Source of the DNA: Escherichia phage ESCO13 | Direction: 5' to 3' (one strand) | Length of the DNA: 64,000 nt | Sequence record: NC_047770.1 | Part shown: positions 19,285 to 34,245 of the stretch, in pieces | Layout of the letters: every line of letters starts with the position of its first letter | How positions within the stretch are numbered: position 1 is the first letter of the stretch | The notes under the pieces: generated by a model | Seen by the model: only the letters and a program-made list of their open reading frames with translations | Database searches by the model: none | What the model was told of the DNA's origin: nothing | Translations under genes and position numbers: made by a program

Positions 19285-20228
19285 TATAGCTCCTCAAATA
19301 AAAGTCTACGACGCTCATTCAACACATCAATGTGATAATGAGTCCTGACATACTTAGCTAATGCTAATCCTTTCTCCATGCAAACATCGGGAGCACTTAA
19401 TAAGTATTCCGTAATATCTTTCCACTCGGAAGGTGTTTCAGCAAAGAATAACAAATCTTTAAACTCTTGTGTATGATAATTCTCACGAGGAGAGCAGATT
19501 AAAGGTAAACCCTTAGCACCTGCCTCAAGAATTTTAAGATTGCTTTTTGCATTATTAAACACGTTATCGACCAATGGTGCAAGACTGATTTGATGACCAT
19601 CGTAAGATTCCATGTAGTTGGCATATGGTCTTACACCTTCATAAACACTAGTTGGTGCTACATTTTCTCTAATTACAGACCATTCACGACTACTTAAAAC
19701 TTCAGAATCCCTACGAAAACCACATATTGTAAGATCTTTACCAAAATCGGGCAAGATAGCCAAATCTTGTTTATGTGTTTCACTTCCAGCCCAGACTAAT
19801 GGAGTTTTGGAGTAGCGATCACGGGTCAACACAAATTGACCTTCATCGTAAGGAAGTCCATTAGGGATTATGTGCACATTATCATTGTATTGTGAAAGTT
19901 CAACTTGCAAAGCAGGTGTCGTAGTTGTAACAAGATCACTGTGCTCTAAAAACCATTTTAAATGTTCACGAATACCTGATTCAAAAATACCTTCTAACAT
20001 GTGTCCTTTTGGAATAACTAAAGAGTCATCCAAATCCATAACCATTTTAAAGCCCAGGTTTTTAAGGGCTAAAAAGCCCTCTTTACCTTTTGTTGGCACT
20101 CCGTTAAAAACGAAAACGTTGTATTTAGGTTGTGAAGAGAACTGCCTTGAGTAAGGCAGCACTACCCTATGGAAATCGCAGACACTATAATTGATTCCGT
20201 TACGATTGTCAAGAATTATTTGTCCCAT
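19284..20228 (-). CDS. putative glycosyltransferase (paralog 1)
   Basis: 314 aa; shares CD(F/Y)HR(V/I)V(L/I)P(Y/F) and NLKILEAGAKG(L/I)P(L/I)(I/V)CS with the next gene; E-x7-E-like region typical of GT-B enzymes. Confidence 0.55.
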   Translation of the reverse strand: MGQIILDNRNGINYSVCDFHRVVLPYSRQFSSQPKYNVFVFNGVPTKGKEGFLALKNLGFKMVMDLDDSLVIPKGHMLEGIFESGIREHLKWFLEHSDLVTTTTPALQVELSQYNDNVHIIPNGLPYDEGQFVLTRDRYSKTPLVWAGSETHKQDLAILPDFGKDLTICGFRRDSEVLSSREWSVIRENVAPTSVYEGVRPYANYMESYDGHQISLAPLVDNVFNNAKSNLKILEAGAKGLPLICSPRENYHTQEFKDLLFFAETPSEWKDITEYLLSAPDVCMEKGLALAKYVRTHYHIDVLNERRRLLFEEL

Positions 20229-20235
20229 ACTTCAC

Positions 20236-21183
20236 CTACAAACTTTCAATAACCTGGCGTCGCAATTCGTTTGCATCTGCCAGATTATAATGTGTTCGAA
20301 CATGTTCCGCTAAGAACAAGCCACGATCTTCCCGATAGTTCGGATTGCGAAGAAGCTTAACAATTTCGTAATGCCATTCTGCTTTATTCTCTGCGTAAGC
20401 AACAGCGCGAGCATCTACAGGGTTAAAATAAGGTAATATCTTAGAACAAACAATTGGAATACCTTTTGCCCCAGCTTCCAAGATTTTGAGATTACTTTTA
20501 CAATTATTAAAATCGTTATCTACCAGAGGAGCTATAGCAATAGCATGACCCTCGTAAACACTCATGTAATTATCTAAATCTTTTACAGCGGCTTTATATT
20601 TAGCATTTGGTAAATTTCTGCGAATCTTAATCCACTCTTGTCCCGTGATGCTCTGTGATGCCTCATATCCCGCAATAGTAAGAAGTTCATCGTCGAAAGT
20701 ATTAGAGACTAGTCGTAAGTCGGGTTCGTGACTAGCACCGCCAGCCCATACGACAGGGGTACCGGATGAACGATCATTTGACAAAGTGAATTGTCCGCTA
20801 TCAAAAGGAAGTGCATTTCGGATCACAACAACATTCCTATTTAAGTGACGGATCTTATATGCCAAGTATTCCGTAGTCACAATGACCACATCAGCAAGCT
20901 TAACCATAGCTACAATAGAATGGGTGTTTGACTCGTATAGACTTGCTAAATAATGTTCTGGATTAAGTTGGTAGAAATCATCTAAATCTACAACAATCTT
21001 AACACCTTGACGTTTCAGGGACAGAACATATTCTGCCCCTTTAGAATGAATACGGTTAAACACGACAACATCTTTCTTAGGCTGAAAATTATTGTTGTTA
21101 AATGGTATAACAATACGATGATAATCACAACCACTGTGAGGTTTTGCATCAATTTTCAGTTTAGTCCATTTTTTATTTGACAT
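20236..21183 (-). CDS. putative glycosyltransferase (paralog 2)
   Basis: Start moved to the ATG at 21183 (MSNKKWTK; RBS GAGGAGG upstream; 315 aa, matching the 314-aa paralog). Confidence 0.55.
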   Translation of the reverse strand: MSNKKWTKLKIDAKPHSGCDYHRIVIPFNNNNFQPKKDVVVFNRIHSKGAEYVLSLKRQGVKIVVDLDDFYQLNPEHYLASLYESNTHSIVAMVKLADVVIVTTEYLAYKIRHLNRNVVVIRNALPFDSGQFTLSNDRSSGTPVVWAGGASHEPDLRLVSNTFDDELLTIAGYEASQSITGQEWIKIRRNLPNAKYKAAVKDLDNYMSVYEGHAIAIAPLVDNDFNNCKSNLKILEAGAKGIPIVCSKILPYFNPVDARAVAYAENKAEWHYEIVKLLRNPNYREDRGLFLAEHVRTHYNLADANELRRQVIESL

Positions 21184-21856
21184 GTGCCAGTGCCTCCTCA
21201 TAAGAAATTCGGATTTTCCCATTTTTAATATCTTCTAAAGACGCTTTATATTCTTCCCAGTTAATGCCAATAGCAGCTTCTTTCTCTTCTTTTGTCAGAT
21301 TAGCAAAAGGCATAGGATTGTTTCCAAAAACATCGTCTGGGTGGATATAAGCCATGATACGAAGTGGACAAGGTATTGCCTGAATGCCCTGATTCAAACC
21401 AGCAGCTTTCAAACGGTGTACCCATTCAGCATCTTCAAAACCATAGCCGTGAGTGTAAGGGCGGAAATAACCCATCTTCTCAACAACGGCACGAGAATAC
21501 ATTGCAAATTGACACATTGCAAGTTCCCAGAGAATAACTTCTCCTTTACTCCCAACAACTTTATCTTTGAAATACTCCGGCATACCAAAGAAATCCCATC
21601 CTCCAGAGACAGCTTGATCTACAAAATATGTTTCCCATCCCTCCATGATTGGGTAGCAATCGTCGTCAAAAATAAACCAATAATCATAACCTTCTTCATA
21701 AAACTGGTGCATAAGTTCATTCCTGGCGTAAGCTACACCTTTACGATCTGGATCGTTGAATACTCGAAAATCTGCATGTGGATCTGTTACAAGATAGTCT
21801 TTAAGTGGACGGACACCTACAGTGATAACACCCACTCCGATTTTAATATTTTCCAT
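21173..21856 (-). CDS. GT-A fold glycosyltransferase (DxD type)
   Basis: 227 aa; WFIFDDDCYP (DxD) and GYGFEDAEW motifs. Confidence 0.55.
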   Translation of the reverse strand: MENIKIGVGVITVGVRPLKDYLVTDPHADFRVFNDPDRKGVAYARNELMHQFYEEGYDYWFIFDDDCYPIMEGWETYFVDQAVSGGWDFFGMPEYFKDKVVGSKGEVILWELAMCQFAMYSRAVVEKMGYFRPYTHGYGFEDAEWVHRLKAAGLNQGIQAIPCPLRIMAYIHPDDVFGNNPMPFANLTKEEKEAAIGINWEEYKASLEDIKNGKIRISYEEALAHVK

Positions 21857-21864
21857 TTTCTCTC

Positions 21865-22428
21865 CTAGATAGTTTTACTGTGATCGTGACAGTGTAATAA
21901 ATGATGTATAGACCGTTGAGGATTTGTTTGACCTAATCTGTAAATGTGAAACAGATACATTCCCCGCATCAATCCTAACCTTTTTCCTTTTTCATGTAAA
22001 GTGCGAGAGAAAATTAGGTCGAATTGGATAGATTTTTCTTCGAAAGGAATTTCATTCCACAATGATTTTCTAAAAAGCAAAAAGAAACCTGCCAGAGGTG
22101 TTCCGAAAGGAACTTCTTCAACACTCACTTTATGATATTCTCTTGCAATCTTAGCATATTCTATATGGTTTAGAATATTTGGATCATCGTTAATTTGGTT
22201 AGAGAAAAGCTGATAACCACTACCTAACCTGTTACAAGTTGCACCTATTACATCAAAAGGCGGGTTTGACATAATAAGCTCTTCAAGCATAGATGGTTGA
22301 TCAGGCAGGAGGAACATTGTATCGGTATCTCTTAAGCACACCCAACTATCATCTGGAAGAACGGCAATAGCTTCATTGATAGCCTTGCCGATATTTCCTG
22401 TCAGATAGGGAGTAATATAATAAATCAT
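21865..22428 (-). CDS. putative glycosyltransferase-like protein
   Basis: 187 aa; LRDTDTMF DxD-like motif; fourth member of the tandem block. Confidence 0.4.
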   Translation of the reverse strand: MIYYITPYLTGNIGKAINEAIAVLPDDSWVCLRDTDTMFLLPDQPSMLEELIMSNPPFDVIGATCNRLGSGYQLFSNQINDDPNILNHIEYAKIAREYHKVSVEEVPFGTPLAGFFLLFRKSLWNEIPFEEKSIQFDLIFSRTLHEKGKRLGLMRGMYLFHIYRLGQTNPQRSIHHLLHCHDHSKTI

Positions 22429-22445
22429 TCTCCCCCTCCGTTATA

Positions 22446-23752: not shown

Positions 23753-24355
23753 TTATGGACATTCATACCATTCTTTTTTACCACCGAAGGCCATCACCAC
23801 ATCGCAAATATCCAGACCAGCTTTACCTACACCATATGCTTTCAGCTTCCATTCTCCATCTTCACGAACCAGGGAAGCCACGTGGCAGATTGTGTTGCCA
23901 GCTACTTCAGGAGCCAGGAAGTCAAAATCCAGAATTTCCACATTGCGCTCGGAGTCGAAGATTTTAAGCATACCTTCAGAAGCATGACCAAAACGTTTCA
24001 GACCTGTATCATCATCAATGGTCAGAACAAAGGCAATCTCTTGTGCATCAGGAGAGATTTTAGCCAGAGTAATATCAATCTGCTCCATGCTGCCAGTTCC
24101 ATCACGAACATCGTCACCAGCGAAGGTAGAACGTTCAGGATCAAACTTGTTAGCATAGCAAACCAGATGACGTGCAGATAGCATTTCAGGATTGCCAGCG
24201 GCATTGTGACGACAAACCAGTGCACTTACATCCAGATCCAGTTTAGAATCAGATTTCCAAGAGAATTCCAGACGCAGTTCTTTCAGAGCCGGAGCAACTT
24301 TCTTCAGGGAAATTTTTTCGCTAGAACCTTTTTTCAGGGAAATTTTATCAGTCAT
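23753..24355 (-). CDS. terD: TerD-family stress protein
   Basis: 200 aa; N-terminal doubled ISLKK motif, DLDVSA, GDDVRDGTG, FVLTIDD and GEWKLKAYG segments follow the TerD domain pattern. Confidence 0.75.
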   Translation of the reverse strand: MTDKISLKKGSSEKISLKKVAPALKELRLEFSWKSDSKLDLDVSALVCRHNAAGNPEMLSARHLVCYANKFDPERSTFAGDDVRDGTGSMEQIDITLAKISPDAQEIAFVLTIDDDTGLKRFGHASEGMLKIFDSERNVEILDFDFLAPEVAGNTICHVASLVREDGEWKLKAYGVGKAGLDICDVVMAFGGKKEWYECP

Positions 24356-24640: not shown

Positions 24641-24869
24641 TTCTTCCTCCTAATGTTATCTCCGGTTTGTATATACGAAGAATTATAGCATTTTCATTTT
24701 CTTTGTCAACCCATTCTTCATAATCAGGCCATACATGAATCTCTACTCTACTTACAATATCTTCCATTCGCACAGTCCCAATGAAATACTCTTTGAGACT
24801 GCGCATAATGAAAGCTTCTCTCTCGCGCCAATAATTTTCTATGACTTGAGAGGCAAGCTCGTCGATCAT
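24621..24869 (-). CDS. hypothetical protein
   Basis: 82-aa ORF; ATGA-type overlap with the upstream gene. Confidence 0.5.
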   Translation of the reverse strand: MIDELASQVIENYWREREAFIMRSLKEYFIGTVRMEDIVSRVEIHVWPDYEEWVDKENENAIILRIYKPEITLGGRSVKLRN

Positions 24870-25660
24870 TTTTTAGCACCTACTTTAACAACCCACTCTC
24901 CGAACTCTTCAGATAAGAGTTTGTCATAAAGCTCTGAATCTGTCAAGTCTAAATCTTTAATGCCAATAAAACCAACATTATCATAAGCATTTGCCAGTTC
25001 TTTCAGGAAGCCAAACTTCTCATTACCAACGCCAACCATGAACCAATAAATAGGTTTATTCTTATTCTCTTCAATAAGACGACGAACAGCACTAGGATCA
25101 CCATTCTCACCATCCGTCTGGAAGAATACAACACCAGGGGTAACGTCAGCACCTGGTTCAGACACAGCTACAACCTTTTCACGCTCTACAGATACTGTTT
25201 CAGTTTTACCAAGCAGACGATTAAAGAAGCCTTTCTTTGGAGCCTCCTCTTGTACCACTTGTTTAGTGGTAATATATTTGGTAACAGTGCCAAAATACTC
25301 ATCGTAGATATCTGCCATTACAGGGGCGTAATTTGTTCCACCTCCGATACGAACATTACGCATACATTTACCAACATAGTCATCGTAAACGTCTGCTGTT
25401 GCTGGAGTAAGCTCTTGGGAACTCGTATTGAAGGCCCACATATCAATTTGTTGATTATCGTCGAACAGCATACCAAAAGGAAGCAGTTTACCTACAAAAT
25501 CACTCACTACCCCACTAGAATATAGACCATGCATACTACCAGAAATATCTAGAGCACATGCTACACGAAGAACAATCTTACCTTCATTCAGGTTCTTATT
25601 CTTTTTCAGAGAGAAAGCAAGGTTTTCTTGACGTTTTTTCAGGCTGATTTTCTCGGACAT
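24866..25660 (-). CDS. vWA-domain protein (TerY-like)
   Basis: 264 aa; MIDAS motif ALDISGSM; N-terminus MSEKISLKK echoes the TerD N-terminus. Confidence 0.65.
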   Translation of the reverse strand: MSEKISLKKRQENLAFSLKKNKNLNEGKIVLRVACALDISGSMHGLYSSGVVSDFVGKLLPFGMLFDDNQQIDMWAFNTSSQELTPATADVYDDYVGKCMRNVRIGGGTNYAPVMADIYDEYFGTVTKYITTKQVVQEEAPKKGFFNRLLGKTETVSVEREKVVAVSEPGADVTPGVVFFQTDGENGDPSAVRRLIEENKNKPIYWFMVGVGNEKFGFLKELANAYDNVGFIGIKDLDLTDSELYDKLLSEEFGEWVVKVGAKK

Positions 25661-26865: not shown

Positions 26866-27065
26866 TACTCCTCCTCCTCCTCATTGAAGTCAATATCTGC
26901 AAGGAGTTCGAATTTACGGAAGTTACGACAACCTTCATAAATATAACAATCACGACAAACTGCTAGAACACTTGGGGGATATATGCCTCCCATCGGCGCG
27001 AATCGTTTTTCGTCATCATAACGGACACCAATGTCCTCATCAATTATATAGATACGGATTCTCAT
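26865..27065 (-). CDS. hypothetical protein
   Basis: 66 aa; ATGA overlap with the TelA-like gene. Confidence 0.5.
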   Translation of the reverse strand: MRIRIYIIDEDIGVRYDDEKRFAPMGGIYPPSVLAVCRDCYIYEGCRNFRKFELLADIDFNEEEEE

Positions 27066-28174
27066 TTACCAAGCCCTCGTTTCACAGCAGCTACCATCCC
27101 GTCTTCCAAAGATTGAACTTCATTAATATAATCAACACGAGCAGCACGGGCTTCCGTATTGATGCGGTTAGTTTCTTCCAACATCTTAACCAAGTTTTCC
27201 TGATCGTGACGCAGAGTTTCAATATCCAACACTTGACGGTTAGCCAGTGCTGCTGCTTCGATCTGATTCTGTGTGGCAAGATCGCTACCCAGTTTAATTG
27301 CCAGGTTAAATTCATCAAGAACGTTATTCTGCGTCTCTGCTGCTTTCATTTGACGTAAGCTCTCGATATACATTGAGAAGTTAGCAGAGTAAGCAGGAAT
27401 AACATTATTTACTATGTTACGCGCAGATCGCATTAAGCTTGCAGAAACTTTTTGCATACCTTGTACACGCGGTCCCATTTGGACACACAGTAGGCGCAAT
27501 GCTTTTAAATCTGCAATACGAATCTCCAGAAGATCCAAAGTATCTCGGATCACTTGTCGCTGTTCTACTGCATCTTCTGGAAGAGCAGCCAAAGCTTGTT
27601 CTTCTTTTTCATAGGTTGCTGTTAGAAGCTGCATATCTCGGTTCAAACTTGCAGCATATTGTCCAATAGCTTGATGTAGCTTTTCAAGATATACCAAGGA
27701 ATCTTCTTCTTTGCGAATATCCATTTGAAGGTTTTTTACCAACTCTTCAATACGGTTATTAACATTATCAAACTCCCCAAACAGATCTTCTTTCATACCC
27801 ATAACTTTTTTAATGAGTTTAGTAATACCCTTGCTTTGTTTAATAGAGTTTGGATCAAGTTGTTTTGCCTGTTTAATCAAAGCTGTGAGTCGTTCACTCA
27901 TCTGATCGCCTTGATTACTACGTTGATGTTTTAATACCTCGGCATTCAAGGAACGCAAGGTTGTTCCTGCCTCTGCCCCAATCTCTTCGATCTCTTGTCG
28001 GGTCATAGAAGGCAAAACTGGAACTTCTTGCGGTGCCGCTGGTGCATAAACAGGACTGGCATCTAACACGCTTGGAGCGAATACAGATTTACTTGCATCT
28101 GTTGTTGCAGCAAATACGCTCATTTCAGGCTTCTTCTGACCGCCAGTAGCTGCTTTTAAAAATGGACTTGTCAT
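27062..28174 (-). CDS. telA: TelA-like (toxic anion resistance family) protein
   Basis: 370 aa, all-helical, coiled-coil-rich; size and composition fit TelA/KlaA; sits next to the TerD, vWA and TerC genes. Assignment by context, not a verified domain hit. Confidence 0.45.
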   Translation of the reverse strand: MTSPFLKAATGGQKKPEMSVFAATTDASKSVFAPSVLDASPVYAPAAPQEVPVLPSMTRQEIEEIGAEAGTTLRSLNAEVLKHQRSNQGDQMSERLTALIKQAKQLDPNSIKQSKGITKLIKKVMGMKEDLFGEFDNVNNRIEELVKNLQMDIRKEEDSLVYLEKLHQAIGQYAASLNRDMQLLTATYEKEEQALAALPEDAVEQRQVIRDTLDLLEIRIADLKALRLLCVQMGPRVQGMQKVSASLMRSARNIVNNVIPAYSANFSMYIESLRQMKAAETQNNVLDEFNLAIKLGSDLATQNQIEAAALANRQVLDIETLRHDQENLVKMLEETNRINTEARAARVDYINEVQSLEDGMVAAVKRGLGK

Positions 28175-28761
28175 TCTTCATTCTCCTCTTCTGCATCTCT
28201 TATATATGGTGAAACACCGTACTCTTTAGCTACTTTAACCCAATCGTCCCATTTATACAACCATAATTTTCCTTCGGTCCCTTCTTTATCTGATTTCAAC
28301 CACATATTAGGTTGCTTACCTGGGTACATGCGATTAGGTTTACGATTATAACCTCTAACACATCTTGTCGCAAACCTATCTACCAGAACAAGAACATATT
28401 TATATTCGTGGTTCAACGGCTCTTTGGAAGTGGCTTTAGGATTAGCCCCTAACTCTGCTGCCAGTTTTTGCCAATGAGCACCGTGTCTACTAAACTTACC
28501 CATACAACCATCAATAGCATGAGCAATTTCGTGCTTCATTGTATCCACGATCATATCTCTTGTAGAGTTCTTATGCAAGTGCCAATTTACAACAACAATT
28601 TTATCTCGGTAGTTGCACCAACCGAAAGAGTTATTCACTTTGTTTCTAACACAAGCTTTATATCCTGCTTCACGTAACATGTTGTAGTAAACAGGAAAAT
28701 CTTCTTTTATTTCCTGCATCACTTCCCACCACAAGAGTTGCAAGTCTCTCTCGGTATACAT
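28171..28761 (-). CDS. SprT-like zinc metallopeptidase
   Basis: 196 aa; HExxH motif MKHEIAHAI plus downstream His/Cys. Confidence 0.5.
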   Translation of the reverse strand: MYTERDLQLLWWEVMQEIKEDFPVYYNMLREAGYKACVRNKVNNSFGWCNYRDKIVVVNWHLHKNSTRDMIVDTMKHEIAHAIDGCMGKFSRHGAHWQKLAAELGANPKATSKEPLNHEYKYVLVLVDRFATRCVRGYNRKPNRMYPGKQPNMWLKSDKEGTEGKLWLYKWDDWVKVAKEYGVSPYIRDAEEENEE

Positions 28762-30344: not shown

Positions 30345-30386
30345 AAGTCTCTCCTATAAAATAGCCTCCCGAAGGAGGCTCATTTA

Positions 30387-31361
30387 TTAAACAGTAGCTT
30401 CTTCTTTTTCAGGGAAGATAAAGCTTGCAATAACACCAAGAGATAATGTGCCTAGAACAATCATCAGACTTACGTTAGGGGAAATATCATGCGGGAGGAA
30501 TGACCACTTGGCATGAAGTGTTTCACCGAACGGGTGATACATAAGTTTAGCACCAACAAACACCAGAACCACAGCAACAGCTTTCTCTAAGTGAACCAGA
30601 TATTTCACAGCTACACTTAACACAAAGAAAAGTGCACGTAAACCAAGAACAGCCATCAGCATTGCAGAATAAACTAGCAGAGGTTCTTGTGTCACACCGA
30701 TCACAGCCGGAACTGAATCAAAAGAGAAGACAATATCTGTAAGCTCAATAACAAACACACAAAGAAGAGCAGGAGTTGCATATTTAATACCATTCTTAAT
30801 GGTGATGAACTTTTCACCATCCAGTGCATTGTGCACAGGCAGAACTTTACCTACTAAACGAACAGCCCAATGTTTAGAGTAATCAATATCCTCTTCTTCG
30901 TCACCACCTTTGATGATAGCCACGGCAGACCAAGCTACAATCAAACCGAACAACACTTGGACCGACCAATGAAGGTTAAACAAAGCGGTCCCTGCTGCAA
31001 CAAAAATACCTCGGAAGACAATGGCTCCTGCAATCCCCCAAAGTAGAATCTTATGTTGGAGATGTGTGCTCTTAATTCCAAAGCTTGCAAAAATTGCCAT
31101 GAACACCATTAGGTTATCTACAGAAAGACTCTTTTCCAACACATAGCCACTTAGGAAAAGCGCGGCAAACTCTTTACCATGTTCTACCCAAATGAATGCG
31201 TAATACCCTAAAGCTAAAGCAATCCAAAAAACAGACCAAAGCAAAGCAGATTTAATTCCAATTTCTTTATTCTCTTTATGACCAAAGAAATCGATACCAA
31301 TAGACAATGCTAAAATACCAACTAAAACAACTACATCAATAATTGGGAAACCGAGTTGCAT
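30387..31361 (-). CDS. terC: TerC-family integral membrane protein
   Basis: 324 aa, multi-TM; hallmark segments LEKSLSVDNL and ELTDIVFSFDSVPAV. Confidence 0.85.
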   Translation of the reverse strand: MQLGFPIIDVVVLVGILALSIGIDFFGHKENKEIGIKSALLWSVFWIALALGYYAFIWVEHGKEFAALFLSGYVLEKSLSVDNLMVFMAIFASFGIKSTHLQHKILLWGIAGAIVFRGIFVAAGTALFNLHWSVQVLFGLIVAWSAVAIIKGGDEEEDIDYSKHWAVRLVGKVLPVHNALDGEKFITIKNGIKYATPALLCVFVIELTDIVFSFDSVPAVIGVTQEPLLVYSAMLMAVLGLRALFFVLSVAVKYLVHLEKAVAVVLVFVGAKLMYHPFGETLHAKWSFLPHDISPNVSLMIVLGTLSLGVIASFIFPEKEEATV

Positions 31362-31378
31362 TCTTTTCTCCTCTCTTT

Positions 31379-31437
31379 GCGGGGAACTATTCCCCGCTTC
31401 ATGTGATATATCTTACTCTTTTTAAGAACTATGTCAA
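31379..31437 (-). promoter_or_regulatory. promoter plus 5-prime hairpin cassette upstream of terC (minus strand)
   Basis: Minus strand reads TTGACA-N16-TAAGAT-ATATCACATGAA-GCGGGGAACTATTCCCCGC then RBS GAGAGGAG and ATG; same architecture as the plus-strand cassettes at 53-63 kb. Confidence 0.55.
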
Positions 31438-31440
31438 CAC

Positions 31441-31662
31441 TTATTTTGTTGAATGAGAGGAAAAGATTCCTCGTAATACCGCCAAAATAAACGAAACACA
31501 AACCACGGTCCAGAAGGTTACTGGGACAGTGATATCTGCATGACCCATAACTTCAGCAACATAGTTGTAAGCCAGCAACAGTAACCAAGCTGGAATCAAA
31601 CTAAGCATAAAAGCAATAACAAAAAAGCTTACCACTGCAACAATACCTGCAAAAACACCCAT
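31441..31662 (-). CDS. small membrane protein
   Basis: 73 aa, two predicted TM helices. Confidence 0.5.
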   Translation of the reverse strand: MGVFAGIVAVVSFFVIAFMLSLIPAWLLLLAYNYVAEVMGHADITVPVTFWTVVCVSFILAVLRGIFSSHSTK

Positions 31663-31674
31663 ACTAATCTCCTC

Positions 31675-32148
31675 TTAAAGTTTATAAATAGTCACATCGT
31701 GACCTGTTTTTACTAAAGTTTCTTCAATCATCACTTGGATGATAGCCCAATTACCTCCGGCATGTCCCGCTCCAATCATAGGTAAACCGATCTTACATTT
31801 TTGGTCACGGAGAAGCAAATCATTAGCCATAGCTATTAGTGCATCGTAAAGTGCATCATAGTCCAACTGACGACCTTTAGCATTGTATCCGTAACGGTAT
31901 TGCCCGTATAGATTATATACCAAAGGGTCTGATTGTTCGTCTGGCACCCCTAAACTAAAAGAACCTAACTTACTTTGATCACCAGCCATTGTGTCTAAAT
32001 CTGCCGCATATGCATAAGGGAATGCTCGTTTAATTTGCGGAGCAATTCCTGCTCCCATATTACACATACAATTGCAACAATGAGCAATAACAGTTACTTC
32101 ACCTGCTTTAGCGGCATCAATAAGATTACCTGTTTTCATTTTAAGCAT
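31675..32148 (-). CDS. macro-domain protein (ADP-ribose binding/processing)
   Basis: Start moved to the ATG at 32148 (RBS AAGGAG); GNLIDAAKAGEVTVIAHCCNCMCNMGAGIAPQIKRAFP matches the macro-domain N-terminal signature. Confidence 0.7.
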   Translation of the reverse strand: MLKMKTGNLIDAAKAGEVTVIAHCCNCMCNMGAGIAPQIKRAFPYAYAADLDTMAGDQSKLGSFSLGVPDEQSDPLVYNLYGQYRYGYNAKGRQLDYDALYDALIAMANDLLLRDQKCKIGLPMIGAGHAGGNWAIIQVMIEETLVKTGHDVTIYKL

Positions 32149-32161
32149 TTTTAGCTCCTTA

Positions 32162-32989
32162 TTACAGAATGTGTTGTTTTGTGTAACGATCCAAGAATTC
32201 AAAGTTTTCAGCATACTTTGAAATTCGGTTGTAACCTTCTCCCAAACATCCGAAGAAAAGTTGCTCTACATAGTAGTGTGGCAATTGGCTAAGAATGATT
32301 TTGAAGTCTTCGTGATTTTGGCCCATAAGATACTTAATAGGACGAACAAGACACTGTGCATCACGTTCTTCATTAATCATTTTAACAAACGCTTCTGGTG
32401 TATTGATGTAGTTAAAATTCAGTTTAGCTTCAGTATCTGCTTGATTACCTTCATATTTTGCAAAATACAAGAAGTAAACATCATTTTTAACTTGATTTTC
32501 ATCAAGAATCTCAATCAGTTTGTCTTCATGAGTTCCGGTGATATTTACATCATCAATGAACACAAGCTTCTTATCACCCCAGAATTCTTTGTTGCAGTAG
32601 AATGTATCCCCATCAATAAGTTTCTTACGACTAGCTTTATCCAAGAAACCATAATCGTTGATATAGCTAACTTTACGATGAATAATATCCAGTTCTGCTG
32701 AACGACCTTGATCATATTGTGCTTGCAACATATTAAAGTAATTAATAAAATGATCTGTCATCATTGTTGCAGCATTGTGCACATGGTTATAAGGAGAAGG
32801 GATGATAACAAATTGTTCCCCAATATGTTTCATTGCCACTTGAGCAAAAAACTGAAGTGCCAATTCTTTACCCATACGACGCGCAGCTTGGTTACTACCA
32901 AATTTCAATTTTGAATAGTCTTTGATATCAAAAGTAGCAGTTTCCAGGTCATCAAATTTATTTGCAAAAATTTGAGTTTGATTACGCAT
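32162..32989 (-). CDS. phosphoribosyltransferase-like protein
   Basis: 275 aa; PRPP-binding-like motif KKLVFIDDVNITGTHEDKL. Confidence 0.5.
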   Translation of the reverse strand: MRNQTQIFANKFDDLETATFDIKDYSKLKFGSNQAARRMGKELALQFFAQVAMKHIGEQFVIIPSPYNHVHNAATMMTDHFINYFNMLQAQYDQGRSAELDIIHRKVSYINDYGFLDKASRKKLIDGDTFYCNKEFWGDKKLVFIDDVNITGTHEDKLIEILDENQVKNDVYFLYFAKYEGNQADTEAKLNFNYINTPEAFVKMINEERDAQCLVRPIKYLMGQNHEDFKIILSQLPHYYVEQLFFGCLGEGYNRISKYAENFEFLDRYTKQHIL

Positions 32990-33638
32990 TTACAATTTCT
33001 CCTCTTTTAAGTTTCTCTAGTAAATCGTTAGGGTTCTTAATATGACAGAAGTTAATCCCTATGTCAACACATTTACCATCAAATTCTTCGCTGTCCCCAA
33101 CATGTAAAATCTCTTCAGCCTTCAAAGGAATGCTTGAATATGTGGCGGTCCTAACAAAGAATCTAGGATCTGGTTTACATAACAGATGTTCGTCTGAAAA
33201 ATGCATAAATTCAAAACAATTCCAACTGTCGAACATACAAGCACGACGCAAAATATCCCCAGATATAAAATTAGTATTGCTTTTAATACTAAGATCATAT
33301 TTACCAGACAAGTATAGCAAACAAACTGGCAAATCTAAAGCGATATGTGGAGGAAATTTAAGAAACCATTGCTCACACTCAAAACGCATTTGTGCAGATT
33401 CTACAGGGGTTAAACCTATCTTTCTTCCCAACATATTCCATGCATATGCTACACCTTCTGCACACCCATTTAGTGCAGCATTATCCATAATTTCTTTGGC
33501 ATCTTTATATGCTTCTTTTGCCGCACGTTCAGACATTCTACCATATGTAGCAATAGTGTGCGTACGTGCATCTGCATAGTTTTGATTGGCAGAAATAAGA
33601 GTATTCCATACATCAAAAGAAATATGTTTTATTGTCAT
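32982..33638 (-). CDS. HAD-superfamily hydrolase
   Basis: Start moved to MTIKHISFDVWNTL; motifs FDVWNT, KPDPRFF and GDSEEFD. Confidence 0.6.
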   Translation of the reverse strand: MTIKHISFDVWNTLISANQNYADARTHTIATYGRMSERAAKEAYKDAKEIMDNAALNGCAEGVAYAWNMLGRKIGLTPVESAQMRFECEQWFLKFPPHIALDLPVCLLYLSGKYDLSIKSNTNFISGDILRRACMFDSWNCFEFMHFSDEHLLCKPDPRFFVRTATYSSIPLKAEEILHVGDSEEFDGKCVDIGINFCHIKNPNDLLEKLKRGEIVNA

Positions 33639-33639
33639 A

Positions 33640-34245
33640 CTAGGCCCACCACGCATCAAGATTTAAGTTACTGTCTACCACAACTTGTTCTATGTGGTAG
33701 CCTTTTATCTGTATCCCACTGTTCAAGAGCATATCATACGCTTCATTGAAACGCAACTTATCTTCTGCGGAATATAAGCGAGCATTATAAAATCGGTAAT
33801 CAATTTCTTCAGCATTAGAAGAAATACGGAAGAAGTTTGTTTCTACTTCGGGATCACTTGCTGAAGTCTTAATGTGAACTTCTCCATAATTTTCTTTACT
33901 TAGATCCATGAAAAGAACACAGGCAACATGTTTAAACATTCGTTCCAGTTTGTAACGAACAACATTGAAACCTGCATTCTCAAGTTTTTCTACACACTGC
34001 AACATTAAAGTAGTGTCGAGATCGCTTTGATACTTTGTTAACATACGATCACGTTGAGACTTTGTATCCCGATGTAAATCAATTGTTGTGCATTTGGCAC
34101 CAATAATCTTAGCTGCTTTCATCAACTCTTCAGAACTAACGTTAGATAAAGTAAGATGAAAATGGGCTTTCCACACTTTTTTAGCAGGGACACCAAAAGA
34201 TTTATCCCCACTATTCGGCATGTTGACTACTACACTATGTTGCAT
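33640..34245 (-). CDS. hypothetical protein (weak 2H-phosphoesterase-like H-x-T motif)
   Basis: 201 aa; AHFHLT motif; function not assignable by eye. Confidence 0.45.
   Translation of the reverse strand: MQHSVVVNMPNSGDKSFGVPAKKVWKAHFHLTLSNVSSEELMKAAKIIGAKCTTIDLHRDTKSQRDRMLTKYQSDLDTTLMLQCVEKLENAGFNVVRYKLERMFKHVACVLFMDLSKENYGEVHIKTSASDPEVETNFFRISSNAEEIDYRFYNARLYSAEDKLRFNEAYDMLLNSGIQIKGYHIEQVVVDSNLNLDAWWA

What the first reader, a model, noticed from the sequence alone, without database searches (positions are those of the whole stretch)
31675..33638. Macro-domain, phosphoribosyltransferase-like and HAD-hydrolase genes in a row: possible ADP-ribose / nucleotide-metabolite module
A macro domain (MGAGIA signature), a protein with a PRPP-binding-like loop (VFIDDVNITG) and a HAD phosphatase (FDVWNT, KPDPRFF, GDSEEFD) are co-transcribed immediately upstream of terC. 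Macro domains remove ADP-ribose from proteins or nucleic acids or degrade ADP-ribose-derived signals. Together with PRTase and HAD enzymes this could either synthesise a nucleoside-like metabolite (as proposed for Ter-associated biosynthetic modules) or counteract NAD/ADP-ribose-based host immunity such as DarT ADP-ribosylation or Thoeris signalling.
Basis: partly seen in the sequence, partly recalled or inferred. Interest (0 to 1): 0.65.

Follow-up and report, generated by a model that had tools for sequence, protein, structure and literature searches.

The report
Phage Ter gene cluster plus anti-DarT macrodomain
The three genes are real, but they are probably two separate things inside a known kind of phage "Ter" cluster: a conserved phosphatase-like/phosphoribosyltransferase pair of unknown chemistry, and next to it a macrodomain resembling the T4 protein that undoes host DarT damage to phage DNA.

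Summary
The window is a Phapecoctavirus (phAPEC8/ESCO5-like E. coli myovirus). On the minus strand, tightly packed, lie a HAD-fold gene (32982-33638), a PRTase_3/ComF-like phosphoribosyltransferase (32162-32989) and a macrodomain gene (31675-32148), upstream of terC. All quoted motifs are present.

The three-enzyme module reading is only partly supported. HAD+PRTase_3 is a genuine two-gene unit. HAD sits directly upstream of PRTase_3 in every phage and bacterial locus I fetched, and the two are fused in at least 14 representative proteins. The pair lies in Ter clusters in 5 of 6 non-rhizobial bacterial loci. The window itself holds a fuller Ter system: TerD, vWA-TerF-like, TelA, SprT-like and TerC. 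Phage-borne Ter systems with PRTase/HAD "signal biosynthesis" genes were already described computationally (Iyer et al. 2021).

The macrodomain is not part of that unit. It is absent beside the pair in bacteria and in most other phages. Its family occurs in about 3,000 phage genomes. It is 37% identical to T4 Tk.4 (AdfM, anti-DarTG2). It keeps the His/Asn/Gln/Gly residues of SCO6735, a DNA-thymidine ADP-ribose hydrolase.

Verdict: a new member of known kinds. The product of the HAD-PRTase_3 pair is still unknown.

The parts
32982..33638 (-). HAD-fold hydrolase, subfamily IA-like, with motif I 'FDVWNT' (nucleophile Asp kept, Asp+2 replaced by Trp). First gene of the conserved HAD-PRTase_3 pair.
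   Evidence: The DxWxT motif is family-wide in 16 loci and in 14 fusion proteins.
32162..32989 (-). PRTase_3 (ComF-like type I phosphoribosyltransferase) with an intact PRPP loop DDVNITGTHE and a family-specific C-terminal helical domain (aa ~190-275).
   Evidence: PF15610, 6e-42; invariant motifs; AF2 pLDDT 94; HGPRT/ComF fold matches; 835 representative clusters.
31675..32148 (-). Stand-alone macrodomain of the ALC1/TARG1-like class, SCO6735 / T4 Tk.4 (AdfM) subclass. Probably a DNA ADP-ribosyl hydrolase (orphan DarG-like antitoxin).
31441..31662 (-). 73-aa predicted membrane protein, found between macro and terC in the window, phage alia and the five Stephanstirmvirinae-like IMG/VR loci.
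31410..31437 (-). Sigma-70-like promoter match (TTGACA-16-TAAGAT), followed by a GC hairpin in the terC leader.
   Evidence: This is a consensus match only.
30387..31361 (-). TerC/Alx-family integral membrane protein.
   Evidence: PF03741, 3e-40; TIGR03718, 318 bits against a cutoff of 246.
30363..30380 (-). Terminator-like hairpin plus T-run just downstream of terC.
28171..28761 (-). SprT-like zinc metallopeptidase domain protein. Its end overlaps the telA start by 4 nt.
27062..28174 (-). TelA (toxic anion resistance family).
   Evidence: PF05816, 3e-33.
24866..25660 (-). vWA-TerF-like protein.
   Evidence: PF10138, 1.6e-37.
23753..24355 (-). TerD-domain protein.
   Evidence: PF02342, 3e-28.
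33640..34245 (-). Conserved phage protein of unknown function (u201), 1 nt upstream of the HAD start. It is a neighbour, not a conserved partner of the pair.

Best explanation
The region is part of a phage-borne Ter system in a Phapecoctavirus. It contains two functionally separate units.

(1) HAD(DxWxT)+PRTase_3 is one conserved enzymatic unit. PRTase_3 most likely transfers the 5-phosphoribosyl group of PRPP onto an unidentified base-like acceptor. The HAD enzyme then processes the phosphorylated product, most simply by removing the 5'-phosphate. The result would be the nucleotide- or nucleoside-like molecule long predicted for Ter systems. That molecule is presumed to act with the membrane-associated Ter proteins encoded alongside (TerC, the 73-aa membrane protein, TelA, vWA-TerF-like, TerD). 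The presumed purpose is to change the state of the infected cell's envelope or ion balance, for example to exclude competing phages.

(2) The macrodomain is an independent counter-defence enzyme of the T4 Tk.4/AdfM type. It probably removes ADP-ribose that a host DarT2 toxin attaches to thymidines in phage single-stranded DNA.

Shown here: the domain identities, the catalytic motifs, the invariable HAD-PRTase_3 coupling and fusion, the Ter neighbourhood, and the macrodomain's subclass. Inferred: every chemical step, the ligand role, the exclusion phenotype and the DarT target.
For: Identity of the window: 99.8% to Escherichia phage ESCO25 over 9.8 kb.

HAD-PRTase_3 unit:
- HAD lies directly upstream of PRTase_3 in 4 jumbo-phage loci, 19 of 20 bacterial loci (L022 appears frameshifted and shows no HAD hit), 4 further phage genera and 15/15 IMG/VR loci.
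- Fused HAD-PRTase_3 polypeptides exist. Thirteen proteins of about 490-545 aa, plus one PRTase-HAD-PRTase_3 protein of 841 aa, occur among the 150 best of 835 representative clusters. All carry the same DxWxT motif.
- The PRPP loop DDVxITGTHE is invariant, and the type I PRTase fold is predicted with pLDDT 94.
- HAD motifs I (Asp), II, III and IV are conserved.

Ter linkage:
- In Bacteroidota, Peribacteria and Pedococcus loci the pair lies beside TerD paralogues, TerY-type vWA, PP2C, a kinase, TerC and a P-type ATPase.
- TerD is immediately downstream of PRTase_3 in the unrelated phage loci L042 and L045.
- The window encodes TerD, vWA-TerF-like, TelA and TerC within 10 kb on the same strand.
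- The published prediction is the same: Iyer et al. 2021 (PMC7824862, section 3.4.10).

Macrodomain:
- Best solved relatives are SCO6735 (1e-12), BT1257, Thermus DarG and TARG1.
- The residues equivalent to SCO6735 His24, Asn27, Gln85, Gly126 and Gly128 are kept (H23, N26, Q83, G126, G128). Mutating Gln85 abolishes, and G128E substantially reduces, the thymidine-ADPr hydrolase activity of SCO6735, and the Asn is conserved in active macrodomains (PMC9411070).
- It is 37% identical to T4 Tk.4, pairwise E 2e-21. Tk.4 is reported as the anti-DarTG2 factor AdfM. A chimallivirus AdfM has also been shown experimentally.
- PADLOC DarG scores 1.6e-10 and NCBIfam DarG 4.5e-9, over the macro half only.
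- The family occurs in 2,982 phage records, against 155 records with PRTase_3.
- It is absent next to the pair in bacteria and in 9/10 non-Stephanstirmvirinae IMG/VR loci. Inserts of 0-950 nt lie between PRTase_3 and macro in relatives.
Against: - No PRTase_3 or DxWxT-HAD protein has been characterised biochemically in any source I found. The acceptor, the product and even the direction of the pathway are unknown.
- The HAD lacks the Asp+2 general acid/base that canonical HAD phosphatases use. It may therefore not be a simple phosphatase.
- The pair occurs without detectable Ter genes within 8-10 kb in 14 rhizobial loci and 6/10 unrelated phage loci. In jumbo phages it sits among RNA-repair-type genes. 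Ter linkage is therefore frequent but not obligatory.
- The macro gene keeps the same slot, between PRTase_3 and terC, in the window and all six other Stephanstirmvirinae-like loci examined, at only about 49% identity. It is packed like an operon member. Coupling in this lineage is therefore not excluded.
- The T4 AdfM evidence is a preprint, and identity to it is only 37%. SCO6735 Lys89 is not conserved here (Gly87).
- No DarT sensitivity data exist for this phage group.
Confidence: 0.62

Rival explanations
1. One three-enzyme pathway. PRTase_3, HAD and the macrodomain act in sequence on one ribosyl or ADP-ribose-like small molecule. They either build a nucleoside-like product or destroy or recycle an NAD/ADP-ribose-derived immune signal.
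For: - The genes are tightly packed in one direction, with no terminator between them.
- The order HAD-PRTase_3-macro-membrane protein-TerC is kept across Phapecoctavirus, Justusliebigvirus and related IMG/VR loci, although the macro proteins are only about 49% identical.
- A macro homologue lies 7-8 kb from the pair in two unrelated phages: L003 and L045.
- In Vibrio phages a macro homologue abuts a ribose-phosphate pyrophosphokinase gene. Macro-PRPP-type links therefore do exist elsewhere.
Against: - Macro is absent beside the pair in all 20 bacterial loci, in KP13-16, and in Rhizobium, Caulobacter and most jumbo-phage loci.
- No macro domain was detected in the ten longest PRTase_3 representatives scanned with Pfam, whereas HAD fusions are common.
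- The macro family is about 20 times more widespread in phages than PRTase_3.
- The locus has no adenylyltransferase or NAD-consuming enzyme that could make an ADP-ribosyl substrate from a PRTase product.
- Its closest characterised relatives act on DNA adducts.
Confidence: 0.1
2. HAD+PRTase_3 is a self-sufficient nucleotide-pool or counter-defence device unrelated to Ter proteins. It might salvage or detoxify a base, or make a nucleoside that interferes with host immunity or with RNA-damage responses.
For: - The pair stands alone in 14 rhizobial loci and 6/10 unrelated phage loci.
- In jumbo phages it lies beside RNA ligase, DUF2828/DUF7788, a 2H-family phosphoesterase, CCA-adding enzyme, NUDIX and a hibernation factor.
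- In Rhizobium phage TM30 it lies next to an NMN adenylyltransferase/NUDIX-annotated gene and near purA.
Against: - In 5 of 6 non-rhizobial bacterial loci it is embedded in canonical Ter clusters.
- TerD is its immediate neighbour in two unrelated phages.
- This phage and its relatives keep it within a TerD/vWA/TelA/TerC block.
- Ter genes elsewhere in the genomes of the 'stand-alone' cases were not checked.
Confidence: 0.18
3. The macrodomain is an ADP-ribose-1''-phosphate phosphatase or general ADP-ribose-metabolite hydrolase. This is the legacy 'phosphatase' annotation. Its role would be to clean up by-products of NAD-dependent RNA repair, or to hydrolyse protein ADP-ribosylation, rather than to counter DarT.
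For: - phrog_335 and many GenBank records call the family 'phosphatase' or 'A1pp'.
- There are weak hits to yeast Poa1p.
- TARG1-class enzymes are promiscuous. SCO6735 also removes protein-linked ADP-ribose (PMC9411070).
Against: - tblastn with RNA ligase and CCA-adding enzyme queries found neither in the window. The annotation of the relative ESCO5 lists no Tpt1/KptA, RNA ligase or 2H enzyme over the corresponding region.
- The active site is the Gln type of SCO6735, not the Poa1p type.
- The reported phenotype of a T4 Tk.4 knock-out is specific to DarTG2.
Confidence: 0.1

Closest known systems
Ter-associated 'biosynthetic module' (PRTases + HAD phosphoesterase) of Anantharaman, Iyer & Aravind 2012, and the phage-borne Ter systems described by Iyer et al. 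2021 (Acinetobacter phage ME3, Caulobacter jumbo phages)
   Same: It has the same Pfam family (PF15610 PRTase_3) with an adjacent HAD gene. It shares the neighbourhood with TerD, TerC, TelA and a TerF-type vWA protein, and the whole set is carried by a virulent phage.
   Different: This is a minimal version: one PRTase and one HAD. No ATP-grasp enzyme, TIM-barrel lyase, TerB or second PRTase was found. It sits in a ~150-kb non-jumbo E. coli myovirus, and a macrodomain gene is inserted between the pair and terC. I could not read the 2012 paper; its content is cited from the 2021 paper and from my own knowledge.
T4 Tk.4 / AdfM (anti-DarT factor, macrodomain) and chimallivirus AdfM (PhiKZ gp104)
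   Same: It is a stand-alone phage macrodomain of about 155 aa, 37% identical to T4 Tk.4. It shares the motifs IAHxCN, MGxGxA, N..Q and PxIGAG..GNW.
   Different: It is untested. PhiKZ AdfM uses a DarG-like catalytic Lys (K78), whereas this protein and T4 Tk.4 have Gln at that position. The genomic context differs: it lies inside a Ter cluster rather than in the tk region.
Streptomyces coelicolor SCO6735 (PDB 5E3B) and Bacteroides BT1257
   Same: These are its closest solved relatives. His24, Asn27, Gln85, Gly126 and Gly128 are all conserved. The protein is a single-domain enzyme.
   Different: Identity is low, Lys89 is not conserved, and the host here is a phage rather than a bacterium.
DarG antitoxin of DarTG2
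   Same: The macro domain is homologous (PADLOC and NCBIfam DarG hits, PDB 5M31), and the presumed reaction is the same.
   Different: It lacks the C-terminal DarT-binding domain and the catalytic Lys80, and there is no adjacent darT. It is not a DarG, but an orphan antitoxin-like enzyme.
NAD+ reconstitution pathways NARP1/2/3 of phages
   Same: They are phage-encoded and use PRPP- or ribosyl-transfer chemistry in the context of NAD/ADP-ribose conflicts.
   Different: PRTase_3 is a type I ComF-like PRTase, not a NamPRT/NadV-type enzyme. No Prs-like Adps, NMNAT, PnuC or NadR is present in the block.

Membership tests
PRTase_3 (PF15610, ComF-like type I phosphoribosyltransferase) | Full-length match to the family profile above the curated cutoff | tested here: met
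   144.2 bits against a cutoff of 28.7, profile positions 9-264 of 264.
PRTase_3 (PF15610, ComF-like type I phosphoribosyltransferase) | PRPP-binding loop (hydrophobic strand, two acidic residues, then xxTGxT) | tested here: met
   VFIDDVNITGTHE at aa 143-155. D146, D147, T151, G152 and T153 are invariant in 27 homologues.
PRTase_3 (PF15610, ComF-like type I phosphoribosyltransferase) | Type I PRTase Rossmann-like fold | tested here: met
   AF2 pLDDT 94. Foldseek matches HGPRT, ComF 7p0h, PyrR and UPRT at probability 1.0, E 1e-6 to 1e-4, over the N-terminal ~180-200 aa.
PRTase_3 (PF15610, ComF-like type I phosphoribosyltransferase) | PRPP-dependent transferase activity and identity of the acceptor | not testable with these tools
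   No biochemical data found.
HAD superfamily phosphoesterase | Motif I nucleophile Asp | tested here: met
   D9 in FDVWNT. Conserved in 16 loci and 14 fusion proteins.
HAD superfamily phosphoesterase | Motif I Asp+2 general acid/base (DxDxT) | tested here: not met
   Trp at position +2 in every family member examined. The same FDVWNTL motif occurs in PDB 2om6.
HAD superfamily phosphoesterase | Motifs II (Ser/Thr), III (Lys) and IV (acidic GDxxxD) | tested here: met
   SIKSNT at 117-122, KPDP at 155-158, GDSEEFD at 181-187, all conserved across the alignment.
HAD superfamily phosphoesterase | Pfam profile match above the curated cutoff | tested here: inconclusive
   The window protein scores 19.5 bits against 26.4. 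Homologues and fused versions pass, at 35-64 bits.
Ter system (TerD/TerC/TelA/vWA plus biosynthetic PRTase-HAD) | Presence of TerD, TerC, TelA and a TerF/TerY-type vWA protein near the biosynthetic genes | tested here: met
   PF02342, PF03741, PF05816 and PF10138 are all above cutoff within 23.7-31.4 kb on the same strand.
Ter system (TerD/TerC/TelA/vWA plus biosynthetic PRTase-HAD) | TerB, ATP-grasp, TIM-barrel lyase and additional PRTases of the full bacterial module | tested here: not met
   None appeared among the Pfam hits for ORFs between 23.1 and 34.5 kb. Only ORFs in that span were scanned.
Ter system (TerD/TerC/TelA/vWA plus biosynthetic PRTase-HAD) | Tellurite, colicin or phage resistance phenotype | not testable with these tools
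   An experiment is needed.
ALC1/TARG1-like macrodomain, SCO6735 / Tk.4 (AdfM) subclass | Macrodomain homology | tested here: met
   Pfam Macro 22.8 bits against 22; SCO6735 1e-12, BT1257 2e-8, DarG 9e-7, TARG1 3.5e-6; T4 Tk.4 2e-21 pairwise.
ALC1/TARG1-like macrodomain, SCO6735 / Tk.4 (AdfM) subclass | Residues equivalent to SCO6735 His24, Asn27, Gln85, Gly126 and Gly128 | tested here: met
   H23, N26, Q83, G126 and G128, read from the HMMER alignment and alignment A3. Lys89 is not conserved.
ALC1/TARG1-like macrodomain, SCO6735 / Tk.4 (AdfM) subclass | Hydrolysis of thymidine-linked ADP-ribose on ssDNA, or protection from DarT2 | not testable with these tools
   Inferred from SCO6735 (PMC9411070) and T4/PhiKZ AdfM.
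DarG antitoxin (DarTG2) | Macro domain plus C-terminal DarT-binding domain, adjacent darT, catalytic Lys80 | tested here: not met
   The protein is only 157 aa. It matches positions 1-144 of the 329-position PADLOC model and 2-147 of the 338-position NCBIfam model, at 36 bits against a cutoff of 250. It has Gln instead of Lys. The neighbours are PRTase_3 and a membrane protein.
NARP1/NARP2 NAD+ reconstitution | Prs-like Adps plus Namat, or NadV plus NMNAT | tested here: not met
   No such Pfam domains occur in the block. PRTase_3 has a type I fold.

The most novel reading that the evidence does not exclude
In Stephanstirmvirinae the SCO6735-like macrodomain has been recruited into the Ter pathway. 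On this reading the HAD(DxWxT)-PRTase_3 pair makes a ribosylated small molecule, the long-sought Ter 'nucleoside-like' ligand. The macrodomain would then hydrolyse or edit that ribosyl adduct, or a ribosyl adduct the pair places on nucleic acid. Together with TerC, TerD, TelA and vWA this would give a phage-encoded on/off switch for a ribosyl signal.
Probability: 0.08. Interest if true: 0.75.

Novelty: new member of a known kind. Interest (0 to 1): 0.33.

Why it matters
The biochemical output of Ter systems has been an open question since 2012. No PRTase_3 or DxWxT-HAD enzyme has been characterised. This phage offers a compact, genetically tractable version in an E. coli host: one HAD, one PRTase, and TerC, TelA, vWA and TerD. 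The comparative data here (invariable adjacency, fusion proteins) show which two genes to express together for metabolomics. Separately, the macrodomain is a plausible AdfM-type anti-DarTG2 factor in a phage group used for therapy and biocontrol, which bears on host range. Neither point is conceptually new.

Tried and rejected
- NAD+ salvage (NARP) reading of PRTase_3. Rejected on fold and on missing partner genes.
- A riboswitch or other RNA element in the terC leader or elsewhere in 26.5-37.5 kb. No Rfam match at E <= 0.1.
- Recent capture of host alx as the phage terC. There is no DNA similarity in 5,426 E. coli genomes.
- tRNA or RNA-repair context in the window. No tRNA genes were found, and tblastn found no RNA ligase, CCA-adding enzyme or DUF2828 homologue.
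- Reading the 2012 Ter paper directly. It is not held in the library.
- Literature search for PF15610/PRTase_3 biochemistry. Nothing relevant was found.
- A second profile search for u201, looking for named AbiEi-like relatives. It returned only 43 unnamed phage proteins.
Full report
**What the window is.** The 9.8 kb around the finding is 99.8% identical to Escherichia phage vB_EcoM_ESCO25 and 97-99.7% identical to many other Phapecoctavirus genomes (phAPEC8/ESCO5-like, Stephanstirmvirinae, ~150 kb). GenBank and RefSeq annotations of relatives call the genes 'phosphatase' or 'macro domain-containing protein', 'putative orotate phosphoribosyltransferase', 'hydrolase', 'integral membrane protein TerC' and 'tellurite resistance/TelA-like'.

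**Checking the observation.**
- All three ORFs are on the minus strand.
- The macro gene most likely starts at the ATG at 32148, which is preceded by AAGGAG, giving 157 aa.
- The quoted motifs are all present: MGAGIA at aa 31-36; VFIDDVNITG at aa 143-152; FDVWNT at aa 8-13; KPDPRFF at aa 155-161; GDSEEFD at aa 181-187.
- Profile hits are Pfam Macro at 22.8 bits (cutoff 22), PRTase_3 at E 6e-42, and HAD 'Hydrolase' at 19.5 bits, which is below its cutoff. PHROG families match at 1e-56, 2e-161 and 9e-121.
- The genes are packed like an operon. HAD and PRTase overlap by 8 nt, and spacers of 13 and 12 nt with Shine-Dalgarno sequences follow.
- Terminator-like hairpins with T-runs occur at 36842-36822 and 30380-30363. 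These bracket nrdD-nrdG-...-terC, and none lies on that strand between them.
- A promoter-like site and a hairpin lie in the 79-nt terC leader.
Co-transcription is inferred.

**The HAD-PRTase_3 pair is a unit.** PRTase_3 homologues (241 by word-indexed search; 835 representative clusters by exhaustive HMM search) keep an invariant PRPP loop DDVxITGTHE and several other invariant motifs. An AlphaFold model (pLDDT 94) matches HGPRT, H. pylori ComF, PyrR and UPRT over the first ~180-200 residues. The last ~85 residues form a family-specific helical domain.

A homologue of the window's HAD gene lies directly upstream of PRTase_3 in almost every locus I fetched:
- four jumbo-phage contigs, including Xanthomonas phage XaC1;
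- 19 of 20 bacterial loci from Rhizobiaceae, Bacteroidota, Peribacteria and Pedococcus;
- Justusliebigvirus alia, Klebsiella phage KP13-16, Rhizobium phage TM30 and Caulobacter phage CcrColossus;
- 15 of 15 IMG/VR loci.

Among the 150 best representative clusters, 13 are single polypeptides of ~490-545 aa with HAD at the N-terminus and PRTase_3 at the C-terminus. One is PRTase-HAD-PRTase_3. Several carry two or three PRTase domains. All the fused HADs carry the same unusual motif I.

Across the family, motif I reads DxWxT. The nucleophile Asp is kept, but the Asp+2 general acid/base is always Trp. Motifs II, III and IV are conserved. The only PDB sequence relative, 2om6, shares FDVWNTL. The pair clearly works together, but the HAD may not be an ordinary phosphatase.

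**Ter linkage.**
- In Bacteroidales, Tannerella, an uncultured Bacteroidetes MAG, a Peribacteria MAG and Pedococcus, the pair lies next to TerD paralogues.
- Individual loci also carry TerY-type vWA proteins, a PP2C phosphatase, a protein kinase, TerC or DUF475, and a P-type ATPase.
- In two unrelated phage contigs TerD is the gene immediately downstream of PRTase_3. Two others have TerD, TerC or TelA within 10 kb.
- This is the arrangement Iyer et al. [quoted passage not shown] - A terC/terF-vWA/terD/telA cluster was also noted in Klebsiella phage phiKp34.
- The linkage is not obligatory. Fourteen rhizobial loci and six of ten unrelated phage loci show the pair without Ter genes within 8-10 kb. 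In jumbo phages the neighbours are RNA ligase, DUF2828/DUF7788, a 2H-family enzyme, CCA-adding enzyme and NUDIX.

**The macrodomain is a separate thing.**
- Its best solved relatives are S. coelicolor SCO6735 (1e-12), BT1257, Thermus DarG, human TARG1 and, weakly, Poa1p. This places it in the ALC1/TARG1-like class.
- SCO6735 removes DarT-made thymidine-linked ADP-ribose from DNA and rescues E. coli from DarT. His24, Asn27, Gln85 (in place of the catalytic Lys of DarG and TARG1), Gly126 and Gly128 are the residues analysed there, and mutating Gln85 or Gly128 removes most or all activity (PMC9411070).
- The HMMER alignment maps these residues onto H23, N26, Q83, G126 and G128 of the window protein. 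Lys89 is not conserved.
- tblastn finds the family in 2,982 phage records, including T4-like tk.4 genes. Only 155 records carry PRTase_3.
- The protein is 37% identical to T4 Tk.4 (E 2e-21), and the same motifs are invariant.
- A 2025 preprint identifies tk.4 as adfM, the factor T4 needs to plate on DarTG2 hosts. A 2026 paper shows a DarG-like AdfM in chimalliviruses.
- PADLOC and NCBIfam DarG models match the macro half only.
- No macro gene lies next to the pair in any bacterial locus, in KP13-16, or in Rhizobium or Caulobacter phages. In the unrelated phage loci one lies 7-8 kb away in two cases.
- In Stephanstirmvirinae-like loci the macro gene always sits between PRTase_3 and terC. However, inserts of 0-950 nt separate it from PRTase_3, and in Justusliebigvirus it carries an ~85-aa N-terminal extension.
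- I read that conserved position as shared synteny, not coupling. It remains the main evidence for the rival explanation.

**How it most likely works.** PRTase_3 uses PRPP to ribosyl-phosphorylate an unknown acceptor. The HAD partner processes the phosphorylated product. The resulting nucleotide- or nucleoside-like compound acts with the membrane-proximal Ter proteins of the same block. All of these steps are inferred from family knowledge and gene context. The macrodomain independently removes DarT2-type ADP-ribose from phage DNA, an inference from homology and conserved residues. I put 0.62 on this two-unit picture as a whole. I am more confident in the HAD-PRTase_3 coupling and its Ter association than in any specific chemistry.

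**Novelty.**
- The phage group, the gene annotations, the idea of phage-borne Ter systems with PRTase/HAD genes, and macrodomain anti-DarT factors are all already in the literature.
- New here, as far as I could find: the pair is invariably coupled and often fused; the DxWxT motif is family-wide; Phapecoctavirus carries a near-complete minimal Ter block; and its macrodomain is the Gln-type SCO6735/Tk.4 subclass.
- This makes it a new member of known kinds, of moderate-to-low interest.
- The unresolved product of the pair is the part worth an experiment.

Noticed in passing
window 33640-34245 (-): A conserved phage protein of 177-201 aa (u201) ends 1 nt before the HAD start. It has many invariant polar residues, including H28, H30, T32, D56, R97, K99, E101, E122, H124, K126, R151 and R156. 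The AF2 model (pLDDT 83) shows two ferredoxin-like units with no convincing PDB match. The only profile hits are two PADLOC models labelled 'AbiEi' (E ~5e-13, nearly full length), yet no named AbiEi relatives turned up. In another phage contig (L033) it overlaps an Acb1 (anti-CBASS) gene and lies near a NADAR gene. In L051 an AAA ATPase follows it. It may be another counter-defence gene.
   Followed up: partly
window 23753-24355 and 24866-25660 (-): TerD-domain and vWA-TerF-like genes are annotated only as hypothetical in relatives. With TelA, TerC and the HAD-PRTase_3 pair they make a near-complete minimal Ter system.
   Followed up: yes
window 28171-28761 (-): A SprT-like zinc metallopeptidase gene has its end overlapping the telA start by 4 nt. 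It is conserved next to telA in related IMG/VR loci (L038, L039).
   Followed up: partly
window about 19290-22440 (-), by correspondence with ESCO5 107401-110545: Four consecutive genes are annotated as glycosyltransferases, between the primase/helicase and the endolysin region. A DNA N6-adenine methyltransferase and a nucleotidyltransferase lie near the DNA polymerase. The targets of the glycosyltransferases are unknown.
   Followed up: no
window 31361-31440 (-): The terC leader contains a good sigma-70-like match (TTGACA-16-TAAGAT) and a GC-rich hairpin (GCGGGGAATAGTTCCCCGC) just before the Shine-Dalgarno sequence. There is no Rfam match, so it is not a recognisable yybP-ykoY-type riboswitch.
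   Followed up: partly
L028 7851-8567 (Escherichia phage alia) and L028 4784-5944: In Justusliebigvirus the macro protein carries an extra ~85-aa N-terminal region of unknown function. An AAA-family ATPase gene (386 aa) occupies the place of u201.
   Followed up: partly
L003, L004, L005, L006 (jumbo-phage contigs): In these contigs the HAD-PRTase_3 pair lies 1-2 genes from a large DUF2828/DUF7788 protein. L003-L005 also carry an RNA ligase and, downstream, a CCA-adding enzyme, a ribosome hibernation factor and NUDIX. This is an RNA-repair-like neighbourhood rather than a Ter one.
   Followed up: partly
proteins P0170, P0212, P0222, P0265, P0302: Very long proteins (841-1153 aa) carry two or three PRTase_3/Pribosyltran domains, and one has an internal HAD domain. 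Tandem PRTase_3 genes also occur in Pedococcus (L027) and a Peribacteria MAG (L026). This suggests multi-step or multi-acceptor phosphoribosyl chemistry in some systems.
   Followed up: partly
phage records MT459144 (Vibrio phage Dax) and NC_042095 (Thalassa): Homologues of the macrodomain (about 40% identity) lie directly next to a gene annotated as ribose-phosphate pyrophosphokinase. This may be a link between this macro family and ADP-ribose/PRPP-type NAD+ reconstitution genes.
   Followed up: no
L007 (JAEZZU010000022.1, 'MAG: Proteobacteria bacterium'): A 13-kb contig binned as a bacterial MAG encodes a PRTase_3 100% identical to the window's. It is almost certainly a Phapecoctavirus fragment mis-binned into a bacterial genome.
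   Followed up: no
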